A DNA stretch of 64,000 bases, from sequence record PQ416618.1; one strand, 5' to 3'. The stretch comes from Escherichia phage vB_VIPECOMC06. How positions within the stretch are numbered: the stretch's first letter is position 1; each line of letters begins with the position of its first letter. The position numbers and the translations under genes are program-made. Positions 21,450 to 53,107 of the stretch are shown here, piece by piece. The notes under the pieces were generated by a model. That model ran no database searches. It had not been told where the DNA came from and saw nothing but the letters and a program-made list of their open reading frames with translations.

Positions 21450-21620
21450 ATGCAAGTTAAATTATTGTACCGTTTATTAAAAAATGGCAAGCATGATTGG
21501 TATTTGCTTATTAAAACCGATCCGAATTTTTTCTCTGGACAACCATTTACAGTTCGTCCTACTAAACGTCAGCTTCGCAAAGCTAAACGTTCTCATCATA
21601 ACTTTTATAGAGAATATTGA
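21450..21620 (+). CDS. small basic protein (~56 aa)
   Basis: ATG at 21450; C-terminus VRPTKRQLRKAKRSHHNFYREY; paralog of the ORF at 22046. Confidence 0.35.
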   Translation: MQVKLLYRLLKNGKHDWYLLIKTDPNFFSGQPFTVRPTKRQLRKAKRSHHNFYREY

Positions 21621-36462: not shown

Positions 36463-39174
36463 ATGAAAGAATTTTACTTAACGGTTGAACAGATTGGTGA
36501 TTCAATTTTTGAACGTTACATCGATTCTAATGGCCGTGAACGTACTCGTGAAGTAGAATATAAACCATCACTGTTTGCTCATTGTCCAGAAAGTCAGGCT
36601 ACGAAATATTTCGATATCTACGGTAAGCCGTGTACTCGTAAGTTGTTCGCCAATATGCGTGATGCCTCCCAATGGATTAAACGCATGGAAGATATCGGAC
36701 TTGAAGCACTTGGCATGGACGATTTCAAATTGGCGTATTTGTCTGACACTTATAACTATGAAATCAAATACGACCATACAAAAATTCGTGTGGCTAACTT
36801 CGACATCGAAGTAACATCTCCAGATGGGTTCCCTGAGCCGGCACAAGCAAAACATCCTATTGATGCTATCACCCATTATGACTCAATTGACGACAGGTTC
36901 TACGTATTTGATCTATTGAATTCTCCATATGGTAATGTAGAAGAATGGTCTATCGAAATTGCGGCTAAGCTTCAAGAACAAGGTGGTGATGAAGTTCCAT
37001 CTGAAATTATCGATAAAATCATTTATATGCCGTTCGATAACGAAAAAGAATTGTTGATGGAATATCTCAACTTCTGGCAACAGAAAACTCCTGTCATTTT
37101 GACTGGATGGAACGTTGAGTCATTTGATATTCCATATGTGTATAACCGAATCAAGAATATTTTTGGCGAATCTACTGCGAAACGTTTATCACCACATCGT
37201 AAAACTCGTGTTAAAGTTATCGAAAACATGTATGGTTCTCGTGAAATCATTACATTGTTCGGTATCTCTGTTCTTGATTACATTGACCTTTACAAAAAAT
37301 TCTCTTTTACCAATCAACCGTCATATTCCCTGGATTACATTTCAGAATTTGAATTGAACGTTGGTAAACTGAAATATGACGGCCCTATTTCTAAGCTTCG
37401 TGAAAGCAATCACCAACGATATATTTCTTATAACATTATCGACGTGTATCGTGTATTGCAAATTGATGCTAAGCGTCAGTTCATCAACTTGAGTTTGGAC
37501 ATGGGTTATTATGCTAAAATTCAGATTCAATCTGTGTTTAGCCCAATTAAAACATGGGATGCTATTATTTTTAATAGCCTTAAAGAGCAGAACAAGGTGA
37601 TTCCACAAGGTCGTTCTCATCCGGTTCAACCTTATCCTGGCGCTTTTGTTAAGGAACCTATTCCAAATCGATACAAATATGTAATGAGTTTCGACCTTAC
37701 ATCTCTGTATCCAAGTATTATTCGCCAAGTGAATATTAGCCCAGAAACAATAGCAGGAACGTTTAAAGTAGCTCCATTGCATGATTATATTAACGCTGTT
37801 GCTGAACGTCCTTCTGATGTGTACAGTTGTTCTCCTAACGGCATGATGTATTATAAAGACCGTGACGGTGTTGTTCCAACTGAAATCACTAAGGTCTTTA
37901 ATCAACGTAAAGAACATAAAGGTTACATGCTTGCAGCTCAACGTAATGGTGAAATAATTAAAGAGGCATTGCATAATCCTAATCTTTCTGTTGACGAACC
38001 ATTAGATGTTGATTATCGTTTCGACTTCAGTGATGAGATTAAAGAAAAGATTAAAAAGTTGTCTGCTAAATCTCTTAATGAAATGTTGTTTAGAGCTCAA
38101 CGTACTGAAGTTGCAGGTATGACTGCCCAAATTAACCGTAAATTGCTCATCAACTCGCTTTATGGTGCGCTTGGCAACGTTTGGTTCCGTTATTACGATT
38201 TGCGTAATGCTACTGCAATCACAACATTTGGTCAAATGGCTTTACAGTGGATTGAACGTAAAGTTAATGAATATCTGAATGAAGTTTGTGGCACAGAAGG
38301 TGAAGCTTTCGTTCTTTATGGTGATACAGACTCTATTTACGTATCTGCCGATAAAATTATCGATAAGGTTGGTGAATCTAAATTCCGTGATACCAACCAT
38401 TGGGTAGACTTCTTAGATAAGTTTGCACGTGAACGTATGGAACCAGCTATTGATAGAGGTTTCCGTGAAATGTGTGAATACATGAACAATAAACAACACT
38501 TAATGTTCATGGACCGAGAAGCTATCGCTGGGCCTCCACTCGGTTCTAAAGGTATTGGCGGATTCTGGACCGGTAAGAAACGTTATGCATTAAACGTGTG
38601 GGATATGGAAGGTACTCGTTACGCTGAGCCTAAACTCAAAATCATGGGTCTAGAGACTCAGAAATCTTCGACTCCTAAAGCAGTACAGAAAGCTCTTAAA
38701 GAATGTATTCGTCGTATGCTTCAAGAAGGTGAAGAATCATTACAAGAATATTTTAAAGAGTTTGAAAAAGAATTCCGTCAATTGAATTATATTAGCATCG
38801 CGTCGGTATCTTCTGCGAATAACATTGCTAAATATGATGTAGGTGGATTCCCTGGTCCCAAATGCCCGTTCCATATTCGTGGAATTCTGACGTATAACCG
38901 GGCTATCAAAGGTAATATCGATGCACCGCAAGTTGTAGAAGGTGAAAAAGTATATGTTCTGCCTTTACGTGAAGGAAACCCATTCGGTGATAAATGTATC
39001 GCATGGCCTTCCGGTACTGAAATCACAGATTTAATTAAAGACGACGTACTTCATTGGATGGACTACACTGTTCTCCTTGAGAAGACATTTATTAAACCAC
39101 TTGAAGGATTCACATCAGCAGCGAAACTCGAGTATGAGAAGAAAGCATCTCTGTTCGATATGTTCGATTTTTGA
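36463..39174 (+). CDS. 43: DNA polymerase (family B) gp43
   Basis: 903 aa; exo motifs FDIEV and YNIIDV, polymerase motifs DLTSLYPSII, KLLINSLYG, YGDTDS; length and N-terminus typical of the RB69-type enzyme. Confidence 0.97.
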   Translation: MKEFYLTVEQIGDSIFERYIDSNGRERTREVEYKPSLFAHCPESQATKYFDIYGKPCTRKLFANMRDASQWIKRMEDIGLEALGMDDFKLAYLSDTYNYEIKYDHTKIRVANFDIEVTSPDGFPEPAQAKHPIDAITHYDSIDDRFYVFDLLNSPYGNVEEWSIEIAAKLQEQGGDEVPSEIIDKIIYMPFDNEKELLMEYLNFWQQKTPVILTGWNVESFDIPYVYNRIKNIFGESTAKRLSPHRKTRVKVIENMYGSREIITLFGISVLDYIDLYKKFSFTNQPSYSLDYISEFELNVGKLKYDGPISKLRESNHQRYISYNIIDVYRVLQIDAKRQFINLSLDMGYYAKIQIQSVFSPIKTWDAIIFNSLKEQNKVIPQGRSHPVQPYPGAFVKEPIPNRYKYVMSFDLTSLYPSIIRQVNISPETIAGTFKVAPLHDYINAVAERPSDVYSCSPNGMMYYKDRDGVVPTEITKVFNQRKEHKGYMLAAQRNGEIIKEALHNPNLSVDEPLDVDYRFDFSDEIKEKIKKLSAKSLNEMLFRAQRTEVAGMTAQINRKLLINSLYGALGNVWFRYYDLRNATAITTFGQMALQWIERKVNEYLNEVCGTEGEAFVLYGDTDSIYVSADKIIDKVGESKFRDTNHWVDFLDKFARERMEPAIDRGFREMCEYMNNKQHLMFMDREAIAGPPLGSKGIGGFWTGKKRYALNVWDMEGTRYAEPKLKIMGLETQKSSTPKAVQKALKECIRRMLQEGEESLQEYFKEFEKEFRQLNYISIASVSSANNIAKYDVGGFPGPKCPFHIRGILTYNRAIKGNIDAPQVVEGEKVYVLPLREGNPFGDKCIAWPSGTEITDLIKDDVLHWMDYTVLLEKTFIKPLEGFTSAAKLEYEKKASLFDMFDF

Positions 39175-39214: not shown

Positions 39215-39850
39215 ATGAAAACTACTCCTATTACTATCGCTATTGACGCAATCATAAAACAAGCTTCTTCTTTGGCCGCTATGGCCAAAGTAATTAGTCA
39301 AAACCCTGCTCGTTATAATGCTATTCTAGAAACTCTTCGACGCCCAGGACTTAGTAATTATGAAAGCCGAGTAATTATTACAGGTGTTGGTAAGAATGCT
39401 AATATTGCAACTAAAGCTTCTGAGACATTTGCTTCACTCGGTATCCCGAGTATGTACTTGAACACAGGGCATTATTCTCATGGTGATGCAGGATTCATTG
39501 CGCCTAATGATGTGTTGATTCATATTAGTCGTTCTGGTAAAACTGAAGAAATGATAGGTGTGGCTAAGCATCTTAAAATGATTCGTCCGAACGTCAAACA
39601 GATTCTGTTGCATTGTAACCCTGACATTCCACAAGAATACGAAGCTCTTTTTGATTATACGTTCTGTACAGGCATCGCAGTAGAGGTTGATGAGAATTCT
39701 CTGGCTCCGACCATGTCCACTACATTGTTGTTAGCGCTTATCGATACGTTTGCTATCAACCTTTCGTCTGAACGTGGATTTACCTCTAATGACTTCCTTA
39801 AGTTCCACCCTGGCGGTGCACTAGGTGCCATGTTACGAGGCGAACAATGA
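39215..39850 (+). CDS. SIS-domain sugar-phosphate isomerase (KdsD/GutQ-like arabinose-5-phosphate isomerase, no CBS domains)
   Basis: SIS core VIITGVGKNANIATKASETFASLGIPSMYLNTGHYSHGDAGFIAPNDVLIHISRSGKTEEM parallels the KdsD N-terminal domain. Confidence 0.7.
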   Translation: MKTTPITIAIDAIIKQASSLAAMAKVISQNPARYNAILETLRRPGLSNYESRVIITGVGKNANIATKASETFASLGIPSMYLNTGHYSHGDAGFIAPNDVLIHISRSGKTEEMIGVAKHLKMIRPNVKQILLHCNPDIPQEYEALFDYTFCTGIAVEVDENSLAPTMSTTLLLALIDTFAINLSSERGFTSNDFLKFHPGGALGAMLRGEQ

Positions 39851-39990
39851 AAGCAATAACAATAGGACTTTTACTATTGATGCTTGTCATGACTATCTAC
39901 TGGAGCTTAACGGCTCCAGTATTGATTCCAACACTTGTAATCGGATGGATTATGATTGGACTACAAGCAAAGTATGAATGCTTTAACTAG
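39847..39990 (+). CDS. small hydrophobic peptide (47 aa)
   Basis: ATGA-coupled to the SIS gene; two hydrophobic segments; not in ORF track (<60 aa). Confidence 0.35.
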   Translation: MKAITIGLLLLMLVMTIYWSLTAPVLIPTLVIGWIMIGLQAKYECFN

Positions 39991-40003
39991 AATAGTGTAC
40001 AAT
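39979..40003 (+). promoter_or_regulatory. putative MotA-dependent middle promoter for the nucleotidyltransferase/kinase gene
   Basis: MotA-box TGCTTTA (39979-39985) with TACAAT 12 bp downstream. Confidence 0.4.
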
Positions 40004-40031
40004 ACACCTACTTACCAATGAGGACCACAAC

Positions 40032-41717
40032 ATGAAAAAAGCTGTTATTCTTGGTGCTGGATTGGCAACTCGTTTGTATCCAATAACGCATCATATTCCT
40101 AAGGTGCTTGTTAACTATAAACAAGACACTATTCTGAGCAATTTGTATACAATTTATTCTGACCTTGGCGCAGATGAAATTATTGTAGTAGTTCATTCAA
40201 AATTTGCTGAAACTGTTCGAGCTTATTGTGAGCAAGAAGGGTTCAATGTGACTATTCGTACAGTTGATGAAGCGTATGGTTCTGCTTATGCTCTTGCTAA
40301 ATTACACAAAGATTTAGACGGCCATAATGTAATTGTTAACTGGTGTGATATTATTCCTGATTTCGGTTCATGGTCTTGGAATGTTAACGCAATCTATGTT
40401 AAGGGTGACGAATGTCGATATAATTTCGACGGTGAAAATATCACTAACGTAGGTTCAACAGGTGGTAATGTTGTAGGAATTTATCAGTTCAAAGACTGGG
40501 AATTCTATATGGGTTCTACTGATGAGGAAATTCATGAATACTGCAAAGGACGTGATTTCGTAGAATTCCTTTACGGCAGCGCATTCAATAAATCAGAGCT
40601 TATGAATCTAATTGATTTAGGTGATATGCCTAAACTTGAAAAAGCTCATGAAGTTCGTGAACTTAATCGTAGTTTTAATGCAGTTGAAATTGGTGAAGAA
40701 ACTGTAACTAAATTCGCATTAACCGAACAGGGCCGAGCTCTTCAGAAAGATGAGATTTCATGGTATCTTAAAGTGAAATCAGATTCAGTTCCTCAGTTAG
40801 TTTCTGTTAATGAAAATAACTTTGAAATGGAACGCATTAAAGGTAAGCCGGCATTTGAATATATTAAATCCAAATCAAGTCTTGCTCGTCCACAAATTGT
40901 TGATGCAATTTTAGACGCACTGAAATTCAGCACAGACACTTATTTTGTAAGTCCTGAAACTGTTCGTCGTGATTTCACTAAAGAATTCTATACGAAAGTT
41001 ATTGATCGTTGTGAAAGTATTCAACCATTGATTGATTCATTTGGTAAAATCACACATGTAAACTACACTAAGATTGGGCGTCTGAAGCCAATGTTGAAAC
41101 AAGCTTTAGAACACCTTATTCGTTATCATAACCGTTCTCAGGGACAGTACTCTGTTATTCATGGTGACCCGAACTTCAGTAATACTATGATTACTGATAA
41201 CGGTGAAGTCAAGTTTATCGACCCTCGTGGATATTTTGGCGAAACCAAGATTTACGGGCCAAAATTGTATGATGAAGCTAAAGTGCTTTATGCTGTTTCA
41301 GGTTATGATGAATTCAACGCTAATCCGACCTGGGGGCAGTTTACTATTGATGAAACAACTTGTAATGTGACTATTAACATCAATCCATTAGTTTACAAAT
41401 ATGGAAAGATGAGTTCGTTTAACGAGTATCATCATTTGGCAGTGGCAATTATCTGGATTGCATTAGGTGGTTATTTCAAGAATAATCCACTTAAAGCGGT
41501 AGCCGCATATTATAAAGGTATGGAACTTCTGACTAAGCAATTACGTAACATGGGCCGTGTACTTCAGGACGGCTCTATTAGTTATGACGTAGCAGAACCT
41601 GTAACGGCTACTCTGATTACAAAAAATCCTGGTAAATGGGTACTAACTGATAAAGAAACTGGTGTTTCCTATCGTCCAATCGGTGGCGATATCACTCATC
41701 AATGGGAACGAATCTAA
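40032..41717 (+). CDS. bifunctional sugar-1-phosphate nucleotidyltransferase / anomeric sugar kinase (561 aa)
   Basis: N-terminal RmlA/MurU-type motif AVILGAGLATRLYP; C-terminal APH/choline-kinase-type catalytic loop VIHGDPNFSN and FIDPRGYFG. Confidence 0.7.
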   Translation: MKKAVILGAGLATRLYPITHHIPKVLVNYKQDTILSNLYTIYSDLGADEIIVVVHSKFAETVRAYCEQEGFNVTIRTVDEAYGSAYALAKLHKDLDGHNVIVNWCDIIPDFGSWSWNVNAIYVKGDECRYNFDGENITNVGSTGGNVVGIYQFKDWEFYMGSTDEEIHEYCKGRDFVEFLYGSAFNKSELMNLIDLGDMPKLEKAHEVRELNRSFNAVEIGEETVTKFALTEQGRALQKDEISWYLKVKSDSVPQLVSVNENNFEMERIKGKPAFEYIKSKSSLARPQIVDAILDALKFSTDTYFVSPETVRRDFTKEFYTKVIDRCESIQPLIDSFGKITHVNYTKIGRLKPMLKQALEHLIRYHNRSQGQYSVIHGDPNFSNTMITDNGEVKFIDPRGYFGETKIYGPKLYDEAKVLYAVSGYDEFNANPTWGQFTIDETTCNVTININPLVYKYGKMSSFNEYHHLAVAIIWIALGGYFKNNPLKAVAAYYKGMELLTKQLRNMGRVLQDGSISYDVAEPVTATLITKNPGKWVLTDKETGVSYRPIGGDITHQWERI

Positions 41718-42103
41718 TGCACCGTGTAAAAAACATGCTTAATCTTTGTTTTGATGTCGATGATTGTATAACAGAGTGGAATAACAATCGTGATTACGTG
41801 AACTTCAAACCAGACGTCGAAATGGTATCTGCCATTAATGCTCTGTATGATGCAGGGCATACCATAACGCTTTACACTGCTCGCGGTATGAAGTCAGTCG
41901 GTCCTGGTCGTATAGCAATCGACATTCTCCCAAGTCTGATTCAGAACTTGGCAAACATTGGCTTGAAGTACCATAATTTGCTAACACATAAACCAGTATA
42001 TGATTGGATTATCGACGACAAAGCTATGCGTCCTGACGAATTCAAAGCTCTTATGAATAAAGGCGAATTCGAAACATTTAAATCATATAAACCGAATCTA
42101 TAA
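41717..42103 (+). CDS. HAD-superfamily phosphatase (KdsC-like)
   Basis: HAD motif I FDVDDCITE, motif II TLYTARG, motif III K (THKPVYD), motif IV IIDDKA; start uncertain (41717 or 41735). Confidence 0.65.
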   Translation: MHRVKNMLNLCFDVDDCITEWNNNRDYVNFKPDVEMVSAINALYDAGHTITLYTARGMKSVGPGRIAIDILPSLIQNLANIGLKYHNLLTHKPVYDWIIDDKAMRPDEFKALMNKGEFETFKSYKPNL

Positions 42104-42157
42104 TAATTTAAGTAAGACCTGCAAAAACCATCGCAACAATTAACGCGAGATGCAAAA

Positions 42158-43318
42158 ATGAATACCTTTAAAATCGGAACGAATTTTGATTTAGCTCTTC
42201 TTGATAAAATCGTAGAGCTCAATAAAACTTATCCTAATAGCTTGATAAACGAAGTATACGGCTCTACAAGAGAAATGGCTTTTGTAGCAGCCAGACCTGA
42301 TTTTAGGCTTCCTGACGTTGACAAAAAGATGTTAGAAGATTACGTTAAACGTTGTAACGAATTAGGTATTTGCTTTAACTATACACTCAACACGATAAAT
42401 CCTGGTTCAAAAAGAGAACTAGTTGAGTGGAAGAAGAAAGCTATTCAGGATTATGTTCAGTATCTTTGGTCAATAGGCGTATGGCGTATTACTATCGCTA
42501 ACCCTGTTGTTATGGAAATTGTTCGTGAAGTCAATAAAGACATTGAGATTGAAGTTTCAACAATTCTACATGTCGATGCTGTAACTCAAATCAAATACTT
42601 GCATGACCAGTATAATATCAAAAAGGTCTGCTGTGGAATTCATAAGAACCGTTCAGTTTCTTTCCTGAAGCGTGCAGCAGAGTTTTGCAATAAGAACAAT
42701 ATAATATTTGAAGTTCTTGTAAATGAGTTCTGTTCTAATGCTGGTAAAGGGTATACAACACATTGTAGTTATCGTGACTCTTGCTATATTTTCCATAGCA
42801 CCGATGTTACAGTAGATGATGCCAAATCCTTAAATGGATATCCAATGCAACACTGCATTAAAGCTCGTGATACAGACCCATTTAACTGGTTGAGAACTCG
42901 TTTTGTTCGTCCTCAAGATTTGAAACTTTATAATGATATTGGTATCACTCAATTTAAAGTTTCTGGACGTACAGGTAGCACCGACTACATTTTGAAAGTT
43001 CTTGAAGCTTATGCTTCTGAAAAGTTTGAAGGTAATTTGTTAGAACTGTGGAAGCCTTTAGAGACTATTTTCACTCTTGAAAACGAAACTGAGTTTTCAC
43101 ATACGGTAAATATTGAAACCTCTTTGTTAGATGGCTTTTTAGAAAAAAGGTGGTTCAAACATCCAGATTTCGATTGTGCTAATGAAATCTGTGGGACGAC
43201 GTGTACATATTGTGAAAGATATTATAAACGTCAGTTATCTAAAAACGGGTTATCAGAAAATTCTATATCTATTATTGATATAACTAACTCTGATGACGCT
43301 TTGAGGTACCCAGAATGA
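42158..43318 (+). CDS. Cys-rich enzyme of unknown function (386 aa)
   Basis: Cys cluster EFCSNAGKGYTTHCSYRDSC and C-terminal CANEICGTTCTYC; weak resemblance to the TIM-barrel peptidase-U32 (RlhA/UbiU) pattern; part of the sugar-nucleotide cassette. Confidence 0.55.
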   Translation: MNTFKIGTNFDLALLDKIVELNKTYPNSLINEVYGSTREMAFVAARPDFRLPDVDKKMLEDYVKRCNELGICFNYTLNTINPGSKRELVEWKKKAIQDYVQYLWSIGVWRITIANPVVMEIVREVNKDIEIEVSTILHVDAVTQIKYLHDQYNIKKVCCGIHKNRSVSFLKRAAEFCNKNNIIFEVLVNEFCSNAGKGYTTHCSYRDSCYIFHSTDVTVDDAKSLNGYPMQHCIKARDTDPFNWLRTRFVRPQDLKLYNDIGITQFKVSGRTGSTDYILKVLEAYASEKFEGNLLELWKPLETIFTLENETEFSHTVNIETSLLDGFLEKRWFKHPDFDCANEICGTTCTYCERYYKRQLSKNGLSENSISIIDITNSDDALRYPE

Positions 43319-43591: not shown

Positions 43592-44308
43592 ATGGGAAAA
43601 CATAACACAATGAAATATATTAAAGCCGCAGATTTTCAATCCGCATTTAAAGCAGTCAATCGTGAAATTTTAGAAAACCCGGAATTCGTAACTGATTCTC
43701 GTATTGGACGTTGTAATGAAATTGGGTCTATGACAGTAGTTGTTGACACTCCATCTTCATTCAAAATGACCGATCCACGTATTAACCGCATCTCTTATGA
43801 ATATGCTGAAGATTTCTGGAAGTTTATGATTTCTGGTGGTACTGATGCAGAAGAAGCATTTAAGGCATATCCTAACGTTGCTAAATTTATTTCTAAACCT
43901 AAATCAGACGCTTTGCCTGCAAACTTCAACACTTTCTATGGTCCACGAATTGCGGCCCAGTTACCAGCTCTTTTAAAAGAACTTAAAGAGAAACCTAACT
44001 CCCGAAGAGTTGTGTTCCAAATTCTTGAAAGTTCAGATCAGGCTTTGCTTGATTCAGACGAAACACTTGAATATCCATGTACTGACTCAGTGACTTATTA
44101 TATTCGTGATGGTAAGCTTTATACCCACTGTCATATGCGTTCACAGAACTGTGCTGTTGTTATGCAGTTGGATTTTTATCTCCAAGGAAAATTACTTCAT
44201 TATATCGCTAAAGAATGTGGTGTAGAAGTTGGTGATTATACTCATACCATGGTAAGTGCCCATGTGTTTGAACGTGATTTTGATTATGTTAAAGGATTCC
44301 TTGACTAA
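43592..44308 (+). CDS. 42: thymidylate-synthase-fold pyrimidine hydroxymethylase (dCMP hydroxymethylase-like)
   Basis: TS-family pattern NSRR, catalytic Cys in YPCTDSVTYYIRDGK, MRSQN; position of gene 42 between 43 and uvsX; N-terminal half differs from T4 gp42 as recalled. Confidence 0.6.
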   Translation: MGKHNTMKYIKAADFQSAFKAVNREILENPEFVTDSRIGRCNEIGSMTVVVDTPSSFKMTDPRINRISYEYAEDFWKFMISGGTDAEEAFKAYPNVAKFISKPKSDALPANFNTFYGPRIAAQLPALLKELKEKPNSRRVVFQILESSDQALLDSDETLEYPCTDSVTYYIRDGKLYTHCHMRSQNCAVVMQLDFYLQGKLLHYIAKECGVEVGDYTHTMVSAHVFERDFDYVKGFLD

Positions 44309-47372: not shown

Positions 47373-48815
47373 GTGGTAGAAATTATTTTGTCTCATCTAG
47401 TATATGACCAGGCTTATTTTTCTAAGGTCTGGCCTTATATGGATTCTGAGTATTTTGAGCGTGGACCGGCAAAAAACGTCTTTAAAATTATAAAGAGCCA
47501 CGTTAACGAATATAATGCAATGCCGTCTATCAATGCATTAAAGGTGGCTTTAGATAACAGTTCTTTAACTGAAGCCGAATATAAAGGAACTTCAGACCTA
47601 ATTGAAAAATTGGCTGATACTCCTGAAGACCATGAATGGTTGGTTAAAGAAACTGAGAAATATGTCCAGCAAAAAGCGATGTATAATGCTACATCCAAAA
47701 TCATTGAGATTCAGTCTAATGCTGAACTACCTCCAGAACAACGTAACAAGAAAATGCCTGATGTAGGAGCTATTCCTGATATTATGCGTCAAGCACTTTC
47801 AATTTCGTTTGATAGTTATGTTGGACATGACTGGATGGAAGACTACGAAGCACGCTGGCTTTCTTATCTGAACAAAGCACGTAAGGTCCCGTTCAAATTA
47901 AACATTCTGAATAAAATCACTAAAGGTGGTGCTGAAACCGGTACACTGAATGTTTTAATGGCTGGTGTTAACGTTGGTAAATCTTTAGGCCTTTGTTCAC
48001 TTGCTGCAGATTATCTTCAAACAGGTCATAACGTTCTTTATATTTCCATGGAAATGGCTGAAGAAGTTTGTGCTAAGCGTATAGATGCAAACATGCTTGA
48101 CGTATCGCTCGATGATATCGATGATGGTAACGTATCTTATGCTGAATATAAAGCTAAGATGGAAAAATGGCGTTCAAAAACAACATTAGGACGTTTAGTA
48201 GTTAAACAGTATCCTACTGGCGGAGCTAATGCTAATACATTCCGTGCATTGCTTAATGAATTGAAACTCAAGAAGAACTTTGTGCCGTCTGTAATCATGG
48301 TTGATTACTTAGGTATTTGTGGGTCTTGTCGTATCAGAGTTTACACTGAAAATAGCTACACATTAGTTAAAGCTATCGCAGAAGAACTTCGGGCATTAGC
48401 AGTAGAATCTGAAACAGTTCTATGGACTGCAGCTCAAGTAGGACGTGCAGCATGGGATGCTTCGGATATGAACATGAGTGATATTGCAGAATCAGCAGGT
48501 TTACCAGCAACGGCAGATTTCATGTTGGCTGTAATTGAAACCGAAGAACTTGCACAAGCTGAACAACAACTTATCAAGCAAATCAAATCACGATATGGCG
48601 ATAAGAATAAGTGGAATAAATTCCTGATGGGTGTACGTAAAGGCAACCAGAAATGGGTTGAGATTGAGCAAGAAGGCATGAACACACCTAACACAGTAAA
48701 TGAAAACGCAGGTGCTCAGATGCGTCAGGCAGAGGTGAATCGTACGGAACGCGTAGGTAAAGCCAAAGCAACACGTGCTGACCTAGATAGCTTAGCCAAT
48801 GAGTTAAAATTTTAA
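47373..48815 (+). CDS. 41: replicative DNA helicase gp41 (DnaB-like)
   Basis: MVEIILSHL...Walker A GVNVGKSLG; 480 aa; GTG start after AAGGAG SD. Confidence 0.95.
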   Translation: MVEIILSHLVYDQAYFSKVWPYMDSEYFERGPAKNVFKIIKSHVNEYNAMPSINALKVALDNSSLTEAEYKGTSDLIEKLADTPEDHEWLVKETEKYVQQKAMYNATSKIIEIQSNAELPPEQRNKKMPDVGAIPDIMRQALSISFDSYVGHDWMEDYEARWLSYLNKARKVPFKLNILNKITKGGAETGTLNVLMAGVNVGKSLGLCSLAADYLQTGHNVLYISMEMAEEVCAKRIDANMLDVSLDDIDDGNVSYAEYKAKMEKWRSKTTLGRLVVKQYPTGGANANTFRALLNELKLKKNFVPSVIMVDYLGICGSCRIRVYTENSYTLVKAIAEELRALAVESETVLWTAAQVGRAAWDASDMNMSDIAESAGLPATADFMLAVIETEELAQAEQQLIKQIKSRYGDKNKWNKFLMGVRKGNQKWVEIEQEGMNTPNTVNENAGAQMRQAEVNRTERVGKAKATRADLDSLANELKF

Positions 48816-48821
48816 TAAAAA

Positions 48822-48840
48822 GGAGACTTCGGTCTCCTTT
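48822..48840 (+). terminator. rho-independent terminator after gene 41
   Basis: GGAGAC-TTCG-GTCTCC followed by TTT. Confidence 0.65.
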
Positions 48841-48844
48841 CGGG

Positions 48845-48875
48845 GTTTACATCTTCCTCTAGGCATGATATGATA
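48845..48875 (+). promoter_or_regulatory. early promoter
   Basis: GTTTAC, TGATATGAT. Confidence 0.5.
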
Positions 48876-48903
48876 TACTTACACTAACCAAGAGGAGAAC
48901 AAA

Positions 48904-49221
48904 ATGGAAACCATCGATTGTAAAGCAGAATTTAAGATTTTTTATCACGGTTCAAGCAGTTCAGCTAACATCGAAAACATGCTTTGTCCTCCTGAGGAAA
49001 CAGGAGTTCTGTCTGAAACTGGACGTAAGAAAAACTTGGATCGTGTATTCTTTACTGAAGATATCGGTTTAGCAAAGATTTATGCAGGACGAGCAGCACG
49101 CTCTTATGGAGGTGAACCACGTCTCTATCGAGTAATTTCTCCGGTAGACGTAGTTCAAATGAATAATACTAAAGGTGCTACAGTTTATCACGCTGAATGG
49201 GCATTTTGCGAGGAAATATGA
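48904..49221 (+). CDS. hypothetical protein (105 aa)
   Basis: SD AGAGGAGAA downstream of promoter cassette. Confidence 0.4.
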   Translation: METIDCKAEFKIFYHGSSSSANIENMLCPPEETGVLSETGRKKNLDRVFFTEDIGLAKIYAGRAARSYGGEPRLYRVISPVDVVQMNNTKGATVYHAEWAFCEEI

Positions 49222-49406
49222 ACAAATTAACTAAAGTTACTTTTATCGGTTGGTTTAAAAGCGGCGAGATGTTCACTAAAGATATCATGTTATCAGGTGA
49301 TCGCGAAGAAATCGAGTGGGTTGCGGTACAACTCGCTGAAGTGAACAGTGCACTTGTTAAAGCATTTGTCGATGATAAGAAAGTTTTTGAAGCAGATTTT
49401 CGATAA
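49218..49406 (+). CDS. dmd: Dmd-like antitoxin (inhibitor of host RnlA/LsoA toxins)
   Basis: VTFIGWFKSGEMFTKDI...WVAVQLAEVNSALVKAFVDDKKVFEADFR matches the T4 Dmd pattern as recalled; ~62 aa; next to gene 41. Confidence 0.6.
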   Translation: MNKLTKVTFIGWFKSGEMFTKDIMLSGDREEIEWVAVQLAEVNSALVKAFVDDKKVFEADFR

Positions 49407-49419
49407 TTTTAAAATAACT

Positions 49420-49449
49420 GTTTACAAGCATCGCATACTGTGTTACTAT
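49420..49449 (+). promoter_or_regulatory. early promoter
   Basis: GTTTAC, 18-bp spacer, TGTTACTAT. Confidence 0.55.
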
Positions 49450-49477
49450 CTTTCTATCAACTACAGAGGAAATTGAA

Positions 49478-49846
49478 ATGAAAAAATTAATCGCTTTAGC
49501 AATGGTATTTGGATTAACCGGATGTGGTGCCCATGGCTTTATCCCTAATAACGTCGGCCAATTGATTTACAATCCGAATGTTAAACAGTATGACCAACCT
49601 AAAGTTGAAGTGGAAGACCCGGTTACTGTAGGTAATCGAATGATTCAAGCTGATGCCCATGCTCAACGTTATCGTGACTCTGATACTGTAGCATTGTCAA
49701 AAGAACAACGCGTTAAAGAACATTGTCTACAGGCTACTGAAATCGCATTCATTCGCTATGTTGAAACAACTGGTAAAGAGCCTACCCAGAAACAAATCGC
49801 AAATAACTACGTCCAGTGTATTGAACGTTTAAACAAATTTAACTAA
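49478..49846 (+). CDS. predicted lipoprotein (122 aa)
   Basis: Signal peptide with lipobox LTGC (MKKLIALAMVFGLTGC). Confidence 0.5.
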   Translation: MKKLIALAMVFGLTGCGAHGFIPNNVGQLIYNPNVKQYDQPKVEVEDPVTVGNRMIQADAHAQRYRDSDTVALSKEQRVKEHCLQATEIAFIRYVETTGKEPTQKQIANNYVQCIERLNKFN

Positions 49847-49907
49847 TTGGTTTATACCAAAGTTAAAATAAGATATTATAAACATAACAAATCAAGAGGA
49901 AATTAAC

Positions 49908-50156
49908 ATGGAATTATTCGTAGCTAGTTCAGTAGCTGTTTTAATCGCAGGTATTGGTTCAATCATCATTTACATGTTGCCTTGGGTAATCGCACTTATT
50001 CGTGGCACAAAAAGCACAACAGCAATCTTTTTTGTATCTTTACTCTTTAACTGGACGATGATTGGTTGGATTGGAACTTTAATTTGGTCTATCGTTGCCG
50101 AAAAGAAATCTGCTCAGCAGCCTCAACAAGTAATTATTATTCGCGAAAAAGAATAA
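49908..50156 (+). CDS. small inner-membrane protein (82 aa)
   Basis: Two hydrophobic helices; size and topology reminiscent of superinfection-immunity-type proteins. Confidence 0.45.
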   Translation: MELFVASSVAVLIAGIGSIIIYMLPWVIALIRGTKSTTAIFFVSLLFNWTMIGWIGTLIWSIVAEKKSAQQPQQVIIIREKE

Positions 50157-50160
50157 ACTT

Positions 50161-50198
50161 GTTTACATTATAGATGGACTATAGTATAGTAGTCCTAT
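50161..50198 (+). promoter_or_regulatory. early promoter with flanking inverted repeat (PeSL-like)
   Basis: GTTTAC; GGACTAT / TAGTCC arms around TATAGT. Confidence 0.5.
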
Positions 50199-50219
50199 CA
50201 AATCAACTAAGGAGTTAAA

Positions 50220-50513
50220 ATGAAAAAGTTATCATTGGCAGCAATCTTACTTGCAGTATCATGTGCACCGGCTCCAGTTACGGCAGGTTATGATAAAGAC
50301 CTCTGTGAGTGGTCAATGACTGCAAATCAAGAAGATGTTGAACAACAAATCTTCTCTGATATCATGAACATCACTAAACGAGACCGTCCTAATATGGTTA
50401 ATAAAGTTGTTGAACAACTTAAGTCTGGCGGTATCATGCAGTACAATTATGTTTTGTATTGTGACCCTAATTTCGATAACAAAGATATCGTAACCGAAAT
50501 CACAGGTGAATAA
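50220..50513 (+). CDS. sp: spackle-like periplasmic protein (97 aa)
   Basis: Signal peptide MKKLSLAAILLAVSCAPAPVTAG; mature part GYDKDLCEWSMT...YNYVLYCD; size and locus (41-61 interval) as T4 sp. Confidence 0.45.
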   Translation: MKKLSLAAILLAVSCAPAPVTAGYDKDLCEWSMTANQEDVEQQIFSDIMNITKRDRPNMVNKVVEQLKSGGIMQYNYVLYCDPNFDNKDIVTEITGE

Positions 50514-50514
50514 T

Positions 50515-51165
50515 ATGATTTATTATATGCACAAAAATGCGCCATTTAAATATGGTAAATTTCCTAATGCACAATGTTATAATATAACGCCGAACGAAAA
50601 TAATAACGGATATCATATTGGTGTAATTTTTGTAATTGTTAAAGATAACGAAATCGTTGCCTGGGCAGATTTTAAAGGTACAACGTATGATGTTAATCCA
50701 GTGCCTTTCACATATTACAATATAATGGATTTGGCATATGATTATAATTGGTTTAATCACGACGCGTTGGCTCATATTGAAGGTGTAGGATTTGACATCT
50801 CTTATTCTAGCTATTCATTATGTCCTATGAGCCGAGCTCACGGTAAAGATGCATCATATCTTTCATTTCGGAAACGTGTAAACTTCAAACGTAGTACAGA
50901 GTATGTCGGTGGACTCTTTGTTAAAGATAATAAAATAACCCGTATTAGTTATCCTTTAAGTGTAGGTCAAAAAGATGTTGATGTTGATTTAGACTTAACC
51001 GAAAATAACATTAATCATATTGCTTCTGTATATTTTGATATCGATGAAAAAATTGTAGTGTGTGGATACGAATTACCACCTGAAGAAAAGGCCGAAACAA
51101 TTGAAGTCGAATTAGAAATTTCTGTTGATGACCAAATATTTAATGCATTTATGAATCGAGGTTAA
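50515..51165 (+). CDS. hypothetical protein (~216 aa)
   Basis: ATG at 50515 (track start is a GTG overlapping the upstream stop). Confidence 0.45.
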   Translation: MIYYMHKNAPFKYGKFPNAQCYNITPNENNNGYHIGVIFVIVKDNEIVAWADFKGTTYDVNPVPFTYYNIMDLAYDYNWFNHDALAHIEGVGFDISYSSYSLCPMSRAHGKDASYLSFRKRVNFKRSTEYVGGLFVKDNKITRISYPLSVGQKDVDVDLDLTENNINHIASVYFDIDEKIVVCGYELPPEEKAETIEVELEISVDDQIFNAFMNRG

Positions 51166-51166
51166 A

Positions 51167-51364
51167 ATGACTACTGCAATTTGCACTGGTTCTAAAATTA
51201 GTGTTTTTACAAGTTTTGAAGATTATGAAGTTGTTTCAAAACACCAATACCATATTAGCGTAAAAGCTAATGATGGTGTAATTTGGAATATTCCACAGTA
51301 TGAAGGCACCACATATGAAGTCACAGATATAAATGGTGACAAAGCAATCTTTGTAATTGATTAA
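51167..51364 (+). CDS. hypothetical protein (65 aa)
   Basis: SD GAGG before ATG. Confidence 0.4.
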   Translation: MTTAICTGSKISVFTSFEDYEVVSKHQYHISVKANDGVIWNIPQYEGTTYEVTDINGDKAIFVID

Positions 51365-51383: not shown

Positions 51384-51851
51384 ATGGGTATTATTAACAC
51401 TGCAATAGATTCTGTTTATGCATATAAGTTTATTCGACTAATGCAAAAACCTTTTATCGAATGGAAAGCATACGAAGCCAAAATCATCGATGAACGTGGA
51501 AGCGTTCTTAAACGTCCTTCTACTCCCGAAGAGAAAGCGGCGTATACACCTTTTCATGCTTCAGTTCGTTCAATGAAGCGAATGATGAGCACTGTTCCGG
51601 GTCTTAATGGAATGGCCTCAATGATGTCTGCCTGGAGTGCTGTAGCATCCCGCTATAACATTACAGAAGAACAACAGAAAGAAATATTTAAAGAACTCCC
51701 TTTATTTGAGGATATGGTTGCTGGTGATTCAGGTGGCAGCCCCCAAGCTATTGCATCAGGAACAACTACAGGTGCAGTCGTAAATAAAGGTCCAGAACAA
51801 ATTCCTTCCAAGAAAAGAAAGCGAATTAAAGTAAATATTAATAAGTTGTGA
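51384..51851 (+). CDS. hypothetical protein (~155 aa)
   Basis: ATG at 51384 after AGGAGG SD; basic C-terminus KKRKRIK. Confidence 0.45.
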   Translation: MGIINTAIDSVYAYKFIRLMQKPFIEWKAYEAKIIDERGSVLKRPSTPEEKAAYTPFHASVRSMKRMMSTVPGLNGMASMMSAWSAVASRYNITEEQQKEIFKELPLFEDMVAGDSGGSPQAIASGTTTGAVVNKGPEQIPSKKRKRIKVNINKL

Positions 51852-51890: not shown

Positions 51891-52913
51891 ATGGCTGAAT
51901 GGATAGATAATGAATTTGCTTATCGTGCGTTTTCTCACCTACCTCGTTTTAGACAAATCAATAATTCAAGCACATTTAAATTAACATTTCGATGTCCAGT
52001 TTGTGGCGACTCCCAGACAGATGCAATGAAAGCTCGCGGATGGTATTATGGCGGTACTCCTGGTAATGTACATTGCTATAATTGTCAATACCACAATACA
52101 ATTTCCGGATACTTAAAAGAGTATGATGAAGAGCTTTATCGCGAATATCTAATGGAAGTTCGTAAAGAAAAAGCTAGAATGGAACCAAAGATTGAAAAGG
52201 TTCCTGAACATAAACCAGAGCCGGAGAAAAAGACTATAAATTCTTTGCCGTCTTGTTCTCGTCTGGACAAGCTGCCTGAAGAGCATCCTATTGTGAAATA
52301 TGTTAAGTCTCGATGCATTCCTAAAGAATCATGGAACAGATTATGGTTCACATTAGAATGGCCTAAATTGGTCAACAAGATTCAACCCGGCACATATAAG
52401 AAAGAGATTCCTGAACCGCGTTTGGTTATTCCTATTTTTAATAAAGACGGGAAGGCTGAGTCATTCCAAGGACGTGCACTTCGTAAAGATGCTCCTCAGA
52501 AATATATCACTATTAAAGCGTTTGAGTCTGCAACAAAAATTTATGGTGTTGAACGTGTTAAGGAAGGAGACGTCTGGGTAATGGAAGGCCCTATTGATAG
52601 TTTATTCATACCCAATGCAATAGCTATTACAGGCGGCTCGATAGATTTAGATGTGGTACCATTTAAAGAACGTCGGGTATGGGTAATGGATAATGAACCT
52701 AGGCATCCGGATACTATAGCTCGCATGAAGCGATTAGTTGATGCAGGCGAACGTGTCATGTTCTGGGACCGAGCTCCGTGGAGATCAAAGGATGTGAATG
52801 ATATGGTGATGAAAGAAAATGCAACACCACAAGAAATTTTAGAATATATGAAACAGAATATTTCAAGTGGGTTGCATGCTAAAATGAGATTATCTCGTTA
52901 TTCGAAGATTTAA
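51891..52913 (+). CDS. 61: DNA primase gp61
   Basis: Zn ribbon CPVCGDS...CYNC followed by TOPRIM-like region (VMEGPIDS); 340 aa. Confidence 0.9.
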   Translation: MAEWIDNEFAYRAFSHLPRFRQINNSSTFKLTFRCPVCGDSQTDAMKARGWYYGGTPGNVHCYNCQYHNTISGYLKEYDEELYREYLMEVRKEKARMEPKIEKVPEHKPEPEKKTINSLPSCSRLDKLPEEHPIVKYVKSRCIPKESWNRLWFTLEWPKLVNKIQPGTYKKEIPEPRLVIPIFNKDGKAESFQGRALRKDAPQKYITIKAFESATKIYGVERVKEGDVWVMEGPIDSLFIPNAIAITGGSIDLDVVPFKERRVWVMDNEPRHPDTIARMKRLVDAGERVMFWDRAPWRSKDVNDMVMKENATPQEILEYMKQNISSGLHAKMRLSRYSKI

Positions 52914-53107
52914 ACAAGCCCTATAATAGCAAAGGCCAAATCAACTACAGTATCCAATGGAACAGAAGGAACTATAATACCATGGGCAACTAACAATGGT
53001 GCAATCCCGAAGTTCCACGAAATAATGCCACCTACAACTATTGCAGCGATAGCAGTTTTCTTTTTATTGCCTTTAATAGCGTTGATTAACGATGGAAGTT
53101 TAAACAT
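52910..53107 (-). CDS. small hydrophobic membrane protein (65 aa)
   Basis: Only convincing minus-strand gene: strong SD (AAGGAG, 5-nt spacer) before ATG on the minus strand; lies in the 61-56 intergenic gap. Confidence 0.5.
   Translation of the reverse strand: MFKLPSLINAIKGNKKKTAIAAIVVGGIISWNFGIAPLLVAHGIIVPSVPLDTVVDLAFAIIGLV

What the first reader, a model, noticed from the sequence alone, without database searches (positions are those of the whole stretch)
48904..50513. Anti-toxin and envelope-protein cluster downstream of helicase 41
A Dmd-like antitoxin (49218..49406) is followed by a lipobox lipoprotein (LTGC), an 82-aa two-helix membrane protein and a spackle-like periplasmic protein. 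Together these look like a host-interaction and superinfection-exclusion module; the lipoprotein and membrane protein have no assigned T4 counterpart.
Basis: partly seen in the sequence, partly recalled or inferred. Interest (0 to 1): 0.45.

Follow-up and report, generated by a model that had tools for sequence, protein, structure and literature searches.

The report
Known T-even phage early accessory genes
This stretch is the already annotated block of early genes between the helicase and primase genes of an RB69-like T-even phage (Dmd antitoxin, Imm.1, Imm, Spackle, AdfA); only a small unstudied ADP-ribosyltransferase-like gene at its start is of fresh interest.

Summary
The ORFs are real and sit at the stated coordinates. 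The window is a Mosigvirus (RB69/JS09-like), about 98% identical to more than 150 deposited genomes. Dmd (49218-49406) is 57% identical to T4 Dmd and Spackle (50220-50513) is 66% identical to T4 Sp; both pass their Pfam thresholds.

The claim that the lipoprotein and the 82-aa membrane protein lack a T4 counterpart is wrong.
- The 82-aa protein is Imm, 65% identical to T4 Imm (PF14373).
- The lipoprotein is Imm.1, 32% identical to T4 Imm.1 (E 1e-18, DUF5481).
- In T4 this gene pair lies between genes 42 and 43. In Mosigviruses it lies between dmd and sp, and RB69's RefSeq record already names both genes.

The tract continues into AdfA (61.2), the anti-DarT factor. Each unit has its own T4-early-type promoter. 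The tract is a variant of the published T4 "anti-TA island" that also carries superinfection exclusion. It lacks tifA (61.4) and RB69 ORF041c.

The finding did not describe the first ORF (48904-49221, 105 aa, homolog of RB69 ORF040c). It is absent from T4 and highly conserved across Straboviridae. It is predicted with good confidence to have a minimal Arr/Tpt1-like ADP-ribosyltransferase fold. The same domain recurs in phage and plasmid polyvalent proteins. Its function is untested.

Verdict: ordinary and already known, apart from this one lead.

The parts
48819..48840 (+). Hairpin (GGAGAC-UUCG-GUCUCC core) just after the gene 41 stop codon; a likely transcript-end or stabilising hairpin
   Evidence: Fold of 48812-48850: 9-bp stem, -12.8 kcal/mol, z -2.86 against shuffles. 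The terminator scan did not call it because the T run is short.
48846..48874 (+). T4-early-type sigma-70 promoter (TTTACA, 17 nt, TATGAT, TG-extended) for ORF105-dmd
   Evidence: Promoter scan, 10 of 12 matches. It aligns in register with the three promoters below.
48904..49221 (+). ORF105 (RB69 ORF040c homolog): 105-aa stand-alone minimal ART-fold protein of Arr/Tpt1 type; function untested
49218..49406 (+). dmd (61.5): antitoxin against the RnlA/LsoA RNase toxins; its start overlaps the ORF105 stop (ATGA)
   Evidence: PF17587 at 8.2e-21; phrog_2102; 57% identity to T4 Dmd, E 3e-23; 56 of 62 residues identical to RB69 Dmd.
49421..49449 (+). Early-type promoter (TTTACA, 17 nt, TACTAT, TG-extended) for imm.1
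49478..49846 (+). imm.1: 122-aa predicted lipoprotein (lipobox LTGC, Cys16; further Cys83 and Cys114); function unknown
   Evidence: PF17578 DUF5481, 37.3 bits. 32% identity to T4 Imm.1, E 1e-18. 121 of 122 residues identical to RB69 Imm.1. It occurs only in the records that have the matching Imm type.
49851..49879 (+). Early-type promoter (TTTATA, 17 nt, TATTAT) for imm
49908..50156 (+). imm: 82-aa inner-membrane superinfection immunity protein with two hydrophobic segments
   Evidence: PF14373, 57.2 bits; phrog_1039; 65% identity to T4 Imm, E 3e-37; hydropathy.
50162..50190 (+). Early-type promoter (TTTACA, 17 nt, TATAGT) for sp-adfA
50220..50513 (+). sp (61.3): Spackle, periplasmic inhibitor of the gp5 tail lysozyme
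   Evidence: PF25676 at 1.1e-42. 66% identity to T4 Sp, E 2e-50. Cys29, Cys81, Ser32-Ala35, Gln37 and Asn76, named in PMC7677548, are all conserved in the alignment.
   Evidence: PF23813 at 4.8e-121. 67% identity to T4 61.2. His at RB69 position 164.

Best explanation
This is the early accessory-gene tract that T-even phages keep between replicative helicase gene 41 and primase gene 61, in its Mosigvirus (RB69-type) arrangement. The order is [P] ORF105-dmd, [P] imm.1, [P] imm, [P] sp-adfA, transcribed rightward from four T4-early-type sigma-70 promoters soon after infection. How each product works is inferred from the characterised T4 and RB69 orthologues, not shown here. Dmd binds and blocks the host RNase toxins RnlA and LsoA, which are freed when their labile antitoxins decay after host shut-off. 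Imm sits in the inner membrane and stops the DNA of later-arriving T-even phages from crossing it. Spackle is exported to the periplasm and binds the lysozyme domain of the incoming phage's gp5 tail spike, so the tail cannot pass the cell wall. AdfA binds the DarT ADP-ribosyltransferase toxin. Imm.1 is an exported lipoprotein of unknown role that always travels with imm; my guess is that it assists or complements exclusion at the envelope. ORF105 is a minimal stand-alone ADP-ribosyltransferase-fold protein. I think it most likely uses NAD+ to modify a host target or a defence molecule early in infection, as T4 Alt/ModA/ModB, AcrF11 and the ART domains of polyvalent proteins do. The module is therefore counter-defence plus superinfection exclusion, and it is already annotated in RB69 and its relatives.
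For: Identity of the phage and the tract: 97.6-98% DNA identity to the best-matching Mosigvirus records. RB69 RefSeq lists 41 - ORF041c - ORF040c - dmd - 61.4 - imm.1 - imm - sp - 61.2 - ... - 61, and the window proteins match RB69 at 104/105, 56/62, 121/122, 81/82, 96/97 and 207/212 residues. T4 orthology: and tblastn against the whole T4 genome. Pfam hits above threshold. Promoters. Published functions: Dmd, TifA and AdfA as an 'anti-TA island' (PMC9391042); Spackle-gp5 complex and Imm (PMC7677548); AdfA-DarT1 interaction and R164H (PMC11825919). The Spackle contact and disulfide residues are conserved. imm.1 and imm co-occur: Imm.1 is in 154 Mosigvirus-type and 502 T4-type records, and the corresponding Imm identity bands hold 153 and 502 records. 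ORF105 ART fold. Link to Arr and to polyvalent proteins. Invariant residues R41, N44, F49, T51, D53, Y60, R63 and E103 (121 of 121 cluster representatives) and H15 (118 of 121).
Against: No function was tested here; every mechanism rests on homology. Dmd is only 57% identical to T4 Dmd, and antitoxin-toxin specificity can shift at that distance. Imm.1 has no known function and its model is poor (pLDDT 58.6). ORF105 itself does not reach any Pfam, NCBIfam or PDB sequence threshold. It has Phe where Arr has Tyr49. The acidic position that may match Arr Asp84 is Asn in this allele. It could therefore be a binder rather than an enzyme.
Confidence: 0.9

Rival explanations
1. The lipoprotein and the 82-aa membrane protein are new envelope proteins without T4 counterparts.
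For: In T4 the 41-61 tract holds no such genes, so a reader comparing by position alone would find none.
Against: They are 32% (E 1e-18) and 65% (E 3e-37) identical to T4 Imm.1 and Imm. They pass the DUF5481 and Imm_superinfect thresholds. tblastn places both in the T4 genome. RB69 RefSeq already names them imm.1 and imm.
Confidence: 0.02
2. ORF105 and Dmd form a toxin-antitoxin-like pair: an ART toxin with Dmd as its cognate neutraliser.
For: The two genes overlap by ATGA and share one promoter. Many ART toxins (DarT, ParT, RES) are paired with a small neutraliser, and these appear among the fold matches. ORF105-dmd adjacency is also found in Dhakavirus JS98.
Against: T4 has Dmd but no ORF105. 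In Slopekvirus Matisse, Acinetobacter phage 133 and Aeromonas phage 25 the ORF105 homolog is followed by unrelated genes (phrog_7619, 11598 and 7668; no BLASTP match to Dmd). Dmd has an established target in RnlA/LsoA (PMC9391042).
Confidence: 0.05
3. ORF105 is a true Arr enzyme that ADP-ribosylates rifamycins and so protects the host RNA polymerase on which the phage depends.
Against: The protein is 105 aa against 143 aa for Arr. The Arr-ms profile matches only its first two thirds in relatives and does not match the window protein at all. Arr Tyr49 is replaced by an invariant Phe. The invariant basic loop G-R-K-K-N-L has no Arr equivalent (Arr has GRIM-N). The domain's commonest other context is polyvalent proteins, which are thought to act on host macromolecules (PMC5512222).
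Confidence: 0.1
4. ORF105 is a non-catalytic ART-fold protein that binds NAD+, an ADP-ribose-derived signal or a host protein, and so acts as a sponge or decoy.
For: It is very small, and many small phage anti-defence proteins act as sponges (general knowledge). The position that may correspond to the Arr catalytic Asp varies (D/E in 101 of 121 representatives, N, S or A in the rest), and this allele has Asn.
Against: H15 is present in 118 of 121 representatives and E103 is invariant, and 60-100% identity is kept across phages of Escherichia, Klebsiella, Acinetobacter, Aeromonas and Vibrio. That pattern is typical of an active site. The same domain is embedded among other enzymes in polyvalent proteins.
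Confidence: 0.2

Closest known systems
RB69 gene 41 to gene 61 tract (NC_004928: ORF041c, ORF040c, dmd, 61.4, imm.1, imm, sp, 61.2, ORF033c, ORF032c, 61.1)
   Same: Same genes in the same order and strand. Proteins are 98-99% identical, except Dmd at 90%.
   Different: The window lacks ORF041c and 61.4 (tifA). AdfA has His164 where RB69 has Arg164. ORF032c and 61.1 are read as one 155-aa ORF.
T4 'anti-TA island' dmd - tifA(61.4) - sp - adfA(61.2) - 61.1 (Srikant et al. 2022, PMC9391042)
   Same: Same position between genes 41 and 61. It shares dmd, sp, adfA and the 61.1 C-terminal part (57-67% identity). It is driven by an early promoter.
   Different: T4 has no ORF105 and keeps imm.1-imm between genes 42 and 43. 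The window has no tifA.
T4 imm.1-imm gene pair (superinfection immunity)
   Same: The two genes are adjacent in the same order. Imm is 65% identical. Imm.1 is 32% identical with a conserved lipobox and the YNPNVK...AQ.YR.SD core.
   Different: The genomic location differs: in the window the T4 slot is filled by four sugar-nucleotide-type ORFs. The window Imm.1 lacks the first Cys pair of the T4 protein.
Arr rifampin ADP-ribosyltransferase (PF12120; PDB 2hw2, 9iaf), the smallest known ART
   Same: Same minimal ART fold. The His of the beta-1 YHG[ST] motif aligns with Arr His19 through relatives that pass the Arr-ms threshold.
   Different: ORF105 is 38 residues shorter and has no direct sequence match. 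It has Phe in place of Tyr49 and a distinct invariant GRKKNL loop. Its substrate is unknown.
AcrF11, Tpt1/KptA and the ART domains of phage and plasmid polyvalent proteins (Iyer et al. 2017, PMC5512222)
   Different: ORF105 is a stand-alone early gene rather than a domain of an injected giant protein. It lacks the N-terminal RNA-binding lobe of Tpt1. It has no sequence similarity to AcrF11.

Membership tests
Dmd (PF17587, T4 gene 61.5) | Profile match above the curated threshold over the full ~60-aa length | tested here: met
   74.5 bits against a cut-off of 27, covering residues 3-62 of 62. 57% identity to T4 Dmd, E 3e-23.
Dmd (PF17587, T4 gene 61.5) | Early gene located just downstream of helicase gene 41 | tested here: met
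Dmd (PF17587, T4 gene 61.5) | Neutralises the RnlA/LsoA toxins | not testable with these tools
   Needs co-expression or phage plating assays.
Spackle (PF25676, T4 gene 61.3) | Profile match above the threshold over the full 97 aa | tested here: met
   145 bits against a cut-off of 27. 66% identity to T4 Sp, E 2e-50.
Spackle (PF25676, T4 gene 61.3) | Export signal, Cys29-Cys81 disulfide pair, and gp5-contact residues Ser32-Ala35, Gln37 and Asn76 | tested here: met
   All are conserved in the alignment. The residues are named in PMC7677548. The hydrophobic N-terminus is shown.
Spackle (PF25676, T4 gene 61.3) | Binds and inhibits the gp5 lysozyme domain | not testable with these tools
   Gene 5 is not in the window; a biochemical assay is needed.
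Imm (PF14373, T4 imm) | Profile match above the threshold; ~83 aa with two hydrophobic segments | tested here: met
   57.2 bits against a cut-off of 27.9. 65% identity over the full length. Hydropathy.
Imm (PF14373, T4 imm) | Blocks DNA entry of superinfecting phage | not testable with these tools
   Needs superinfection assays.
Imm.1 (PF17578 / DUF5481) | Profile match above the threshold; lipobox; gene immediately upstream of imm | tested here: met
   37.3 bits against a cut-off of 27. LTGC here against LAGC in T4. Adjacency.
T4 anti-TA island (dmd, tifA, adfA) | Presence of all three anti-toxin genes | tested here: not met
   dmd and adfA are present. tifA is absent: the only tblastn match is 15 aa at 21546-21590, and the DNA alignment shows a clean absence relative to pEK20.
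Arr-ms rifampin ADP-ribosyltransferase (PF12120), for ORF105 | Profile match above the curated threshold (25 bits) | tested here: not met
   The window protein gives no hit even at E up to 10. Only 5 of 79 family members match, best E 0.026. More distant relatives in polyvalent proteins do pass, at 26.9-29.4 bits.
Arr-ms rifampin ADP-ribosyltransferase (PF12120), for ORF105 | Arr-like fold | tested here: met
Arr-ms rifampin ADP-ribosyltransferase (PF12120), for ORF105 | Active-site residues His19, Tyr49 and Asp84 (as I recall them from Baysarowich et al. 2008; not re-read here) | tested here: inconclusive
   Through the P0149-Arr alignment, His19 corresponds to H15 (118 of 121 representatives) and Tyr49 to an invariant Phe49. 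The Asp84 equivalent lies beyond the aligned stretch. Nearby position 88 is D/E in 101 of 121 representatives but Asn here, while E103 is invariant.
ART superfamily (H-Y-[EDQ] clade), for ORF105 | Split beta-sheet ART fold with a beta-1 His and a C-terminal acidic residue | tested here: met
ART superfamily (H-Y-[EDQ] clade), for ORF105 | NAD+-dependent transfer of ADP-ribose | not testable with these tools
   Needs an enzyme assay.

The most novel reading that the evidence does not exclude
ORF105 (48904-49221; RB69 ORF040c family) may be an active, exceptionally small stand-alone ADP-ribosyltransferase that Straboviridae express immediately after infection, from the same promoter as dmd in Mosigvirus and Dhakavirus. 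It would modify a host defence or takeover target and would be a fourth, unstudied T-even ART beside Alt, ModA and ModB. It is related to the Arr-like domains carried by polyvalent proteins. Separately, Imm.1 may be a third, lipoprotein component of T-even superinfection exclusion.
Probability: 0.4. Interest if true: 0.5.

Novelty: already known. Interest (0 to 1): 0.2.

Why it matters
As a cluster it changes nothing. The genes, their order and the functions of Dmd, Imm, Sp and AdfA are already in the RB69 annotation and the literature.

It is a useful worked example of how T-even phages shuffle counter-defence and exclusion genes within one early tract. Examples are the moved imm.1-imm pair, the presence or absence of tifA and ORF041c, and the AdfA His164/Arg164 alleles. 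Such differences probably help set host range.

The one lead worth an experiment is the 105-aa ART-fold protein. It is found in 609 phage records, is more than 60% identical across phages of five or more host genera, is absent from T4 (which probably explains why it was never studied), and shares a domain with polyvalent proteins. If it is an active enzyme, its target would add a new ADP-ribosylation step to early T-even infection.

Tried and rejected
1. Direct sequence searches with ORF105 found nothing: PDB by phmmer and by profile, Pfam at E up to 10 and NCBIfam. The link to Arr needed structure prediction and intermediate relatives.
I replaced it with the real PDB alignment.
3. The afdb50 fold library was unavailable.
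4. Word-indexed searches for Imm.1 returned only 3 relatives each. The resulting 5-sequence alignment gave a poor model (pLDDT 58.6), so I ran no fold search on it.
5. The idea that ORF105 and Dmd are a toxin-antitoxin pair was rejected: the downstream partners in other genera are unrelated and T4 has Dmd alone.
6. The idea that the large proteins holding the ORF105-like domain are polymorphic toxins was rejected in favour of polyvalent proteins, because they carry ART-PolyVal, NUDIX, GNAT, Toprim and portal domains and show no Rhs or secretion domains.
7. The literature searches for a study of this ART family in T4-like phages found none. A 2026 bioRxiv preprint on Mosigvirus AV110 early proteins mentions ADP-ribosyl but could not be opened.
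8. A search for tifA elsewhere in the window found only a 15-aa chance-level match.
Full report
**What is there**

The stretch 48.8-51.2 kb carries a tight, same-strand run of short ORFs between helicase gene 41 (47373-48815) and primase gene 61 (51891-52913). They are:
- ORF105, 48904-49221
- a 62-aa ORF, 49218-49406
- a 122-aa ORF, 49478-49846
- an 82-aa ORF, 49908-50156
- a 97-aa ORF, 50220-50513
- a 216-aa ORF, 50515-51165

Every ORF has a Shine-Dalgarno sequence. The first two overlap by ATGA, and the last two are 1 nt apart.

The DNA of 48800-50600 is 97.6-98% identical over its full length to the 30 best listed phage records. Those whose taxonomy I looked up (348Ecol098PP, pEK20, RB69) are genus Mosigvirus. 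In all, 154 records cover at least 80% of it.

**Identities**

Pfam, with all matches above curated thresholds, gives:
- Dmd for the 62-aa protein (74.5 bits)
- DUF5481 for the 122-aa protein (37.3 bits)
- Imm_superinfect for the 82-aa protein (57.2 bits)
- T4_Spackle for the 97-aa protein (145 bits)
- AdfA for the 216-aa protein (402 bits)

PHROGs agrees. Pairwise comparison with the T4 proteins taken from NC_000866 gives:

| Protein | Identity to T4 | E-value |
|---|---|---|
| Dmd | 57% | 3e-23 |
| Sp | 66% | 2e-50 |
| Imm | 65% | 3e-37 |
| Imm.1 | 32% | 1e-18 |

tblastn against a complete T4 genome finds each of them once.

The RB69 RefSeq record already labels the whole series 41 - ORF041c - ORF040c - dmd - 61.4 - imm.1 - imm - sp - 61.2 - ORF033c - ORF032c - 61.1 - 61. 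The window proteins match RB69 at 104/105, 56/62, 121/122, 81/82, 96/97 and 207/212 residues.

**Arrangement compared with T4**

In T4 the 41-61 tract reads dmd - 61.4 - sp - 61.2 - 61.1, and imm.1-imm lies between genes 42 and 43. In the window that T4 slot (39215-43318) holds four other ORFs: a SIS domain protein, a nucleotidyl transferase, a 133-aa ORF and a peptidase-U32-like protein. The imm.1-imm pair sits between dmd and sp in the same internal order.

Imm.1 is detectable only in Mosigvirus-type records (154) and T4-type records (502). These counts match the two corresponding identity bands of Imm, 153 and 502. The two genes therefore travel as a pair.

Imm homologs in other T4-like genera lie near gene 42 or at a similar map position. 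Dhakavirus JS98 has 41 - ORF105 homolog - dmd - 61.4 - sp with no imm there. This suggests that the Mosigvirus position is the derived one, but that is an inference.

**Regulation**

Four sigma-70-type sites stand 30-33 nt upstream of the starts of ORF105, imm.1, imm and sp. Each has the T4-early -35 motif GTTTAC/T-A and a TAnnnT -10 element. The four upstream regions align in register. A 9-bp UUCG hairpin (-12.8 kcal/mol, z -2.9) follows the gene 41 stop codon. The T4 dmd-tifA operon is reported to be driven by an early promoter (PMC9391042). Early expression of the window genes is therefore inferred, not shown.

**How the known parts work (from the literature on the orthologues)**

- Dmd inhibits the RnlA toxin (the paper's cited reference also covers LsoA), TifA (61.4) inhibits ToxN, and AdfA (61.2) counters DarT. 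Srikant et al. called this T4 region an anti-TA island (PMC9391042).
- Spackle is a periplasmic 75-aa helical protein with a Cys29-Cys81 disulfide. It binds the gp5 tail lysozyme and, together with Imm, gives superinfection exclusion (PMC7677548).
- The window Spackle keeps Cys29, Cys81, Ser32-Met33-Thr34-Ala35, Gln37 and Asn76.
- AdfA binds DarT1. An R164H change turns the inactive RB69 allele into an active one (PMC11825919). The window allele has His164.

**Differences from RB69**

The window lacks tifA and RB69 ORF041c. Relatives such as pEK20 carry both; its 70-aa ORF is 57% identical to T4 TifA. The size classes (1801, about 2231 and about 2437 bases) fit an insertion or deletion of about 430 bases and another of about 206 bases within the genus. 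These sizes match ORF041c and tifA, although I compared the DNA directly only for pEK20. RB69 ORF032c and 61.1 are one 155-aa ORF here.

**Imm.1**

It has a lipobox (LTGC; LAGC in T4), a conserved YNPNVK...PK..VE...D..AQ.YR.SD core and two C-terminal cysteines. One 46%-identical variant has no lipobox cysteine. The AF2 model is poor (pLDDT 58.6). Only a C-terminal helical hairpin, about residues 75-120, is confident. Its function remains unknown. The obligate pairing with imm is the only clue.

**ORF105**

This is the only part with some freshness. It is the homolog of RB69 ORF040c.

Distribution and conservation:
- It is present in 609 phage records, covering Escherichia, Klebsiella, Acinetobacter, Aeromonas, Vibrio and other hosts, mostly at 60-100% identity.
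- It is absent from T4: the best tblastn E-value is 2.2 and the best family-HMM E-value is 0.56.
- Among 121 cluster representatives, R41, N44, F49, T51, D53, Y60, R63, G69, G70, G91 and E103 are invariant, and H15 is present in 118.

Sequence searches against Pfam, NCBIfam and PDB give nothing.

Structure:
- An AF2 model built from 79 sequences is confident (pLDDT 87.3, pTM 0.79).
- Foldseek ranks Arr first.
- A 94-aa phage protein named as a rifampin ART matches in BFVD at E 1.4e-8.

Wider family:
- A profile search of 1.84 billion representatives finds 229 relatives. About 47 of the best 150 are longer than 250 aa, and the longest is 3924 aa.
- In ten of these, the matching stretch often passes the Pfam Arr-ms threshold (26.9-29.4 bits). 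Its neighbours are ART-PolyVal, NUDIX, GNAT, Toprim, a lambda-type portal and a 2H/Acb1-like domain.
- That is the signature of the polyvalent proteins of phages and conjugative elements (PMC5512222).
- One such domain hits PDB Arr at E 5e-4. The alignment places Arr His19 on ORF105 H15 and Arr Tyr49 on the invariant F49.

Genomic context:
- The gene's place varies. It lies in the 41-61 tract in Mosigvirus, Dhakavirus and Acinetobacter phage 133, and near hoc/inh in Slopekvirus Matisse and Aeromonas phage 25.
- Its downstream neighbours are unrelated to each other.
- It is therefore an independent module, not a partner of Dmd.

I conclude that it is a minimal Arr/Tpt1-like ART-fold protein and most likely an early host-modifying or counter-defence enzyme. 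Activity and target are untested. I do not file it as a member of Pfam Arr-ms, because that test was not met.

I found no paper on it in the library. One possibly relevant 2026 preprint could not be opened.

**Verdict**

The cluster is the known RB69-type early tract that combines anti-toxin genes (dmd, adfA) with superinfection exclusion (imm, sp), plus two uncharacterised genes (imm.1, ORF105).

- Novelty: already known.
- Interest: low (0.2), and it rests only on the unstudied mini-ART and on Imm.1.

Noticed in passing
window 39215-43318 (+), between gene 43 (36463-39174) and gene 42 (43592-44308): Four ORFs fill the slot where T4 keeps imm.1-imm: a SIS-domain protein, a 561-aa nucleotidyl transferase, a 133-aa ORF and a peptidase-U32-like protein. 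They correspond to RB69ORF055c, 053c and 050c. From memory, not tested here, they are probably a sugar-nucleotide pathway for the RB69-type DNA modification.
   Followed up: partly
window 50515-51165 (AdfA), residue 164 in RB69 numbering (start at 50527): AdfA has His164 where RB69 has Arg164. R164H is the published escape change that lets RB69 AdfA bind and neutralise DarT1. This phage is therefore predicted to carry the active allele.
   Followed up: yes
window 49407-49477 and 48816-48903: tifA (61.4, the ToxN inhibitor) and RB69 ORF041c (125 aa, phrog_10668) are absent here but present in RB69 and pEK20. The three match lengths among close relatives fit two insertion/deletion sites of about 430 and about 206 bases within the genus.
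   Followed up: partly
window 51384-51851 (+): A single 155-aa ORF equals RB69 ORF032c plus gp61.1 read through; RB69 has them split. Only the last ~50 residues match T4 61.1 (54 aa). Function unknown.
   Followed up: partly
window 51167-51364 (+): A 65-aa ORF (phrog_3249, homolog of RB69 ORF033c) lies between adfA and the 61.1-like gene. It has no Pfam match and no T4 homolog by tblastn.
   Followed up: no
proteins P0134-P0215 found with the ORF105 profile: The ORF105-type Arr-like domain occurs in giant multidomain proteins of up to 3924 aa, sometimes directly after an ART-PolyVal domain (P0138, P0170). These proteins therefore carry two different ART domains in tandem.
   Followed up: partly
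window 52910-53107 (-): A 65-aa hydrophobic ORF lies on the opposite strand just after primase gene 61. It is annotated as hypothetical in relatives (RB69ORF029w) and has no Pfam match.
   Followed up: no
window 49218-49406 (Dmd) compared with RB69: Dmd is noticeably more diverged from RB69 (56 of 62 residues) than its neighbours (98-99%). It is also one residue shorter, next to the site where tifA is missing.
   Followed up: no
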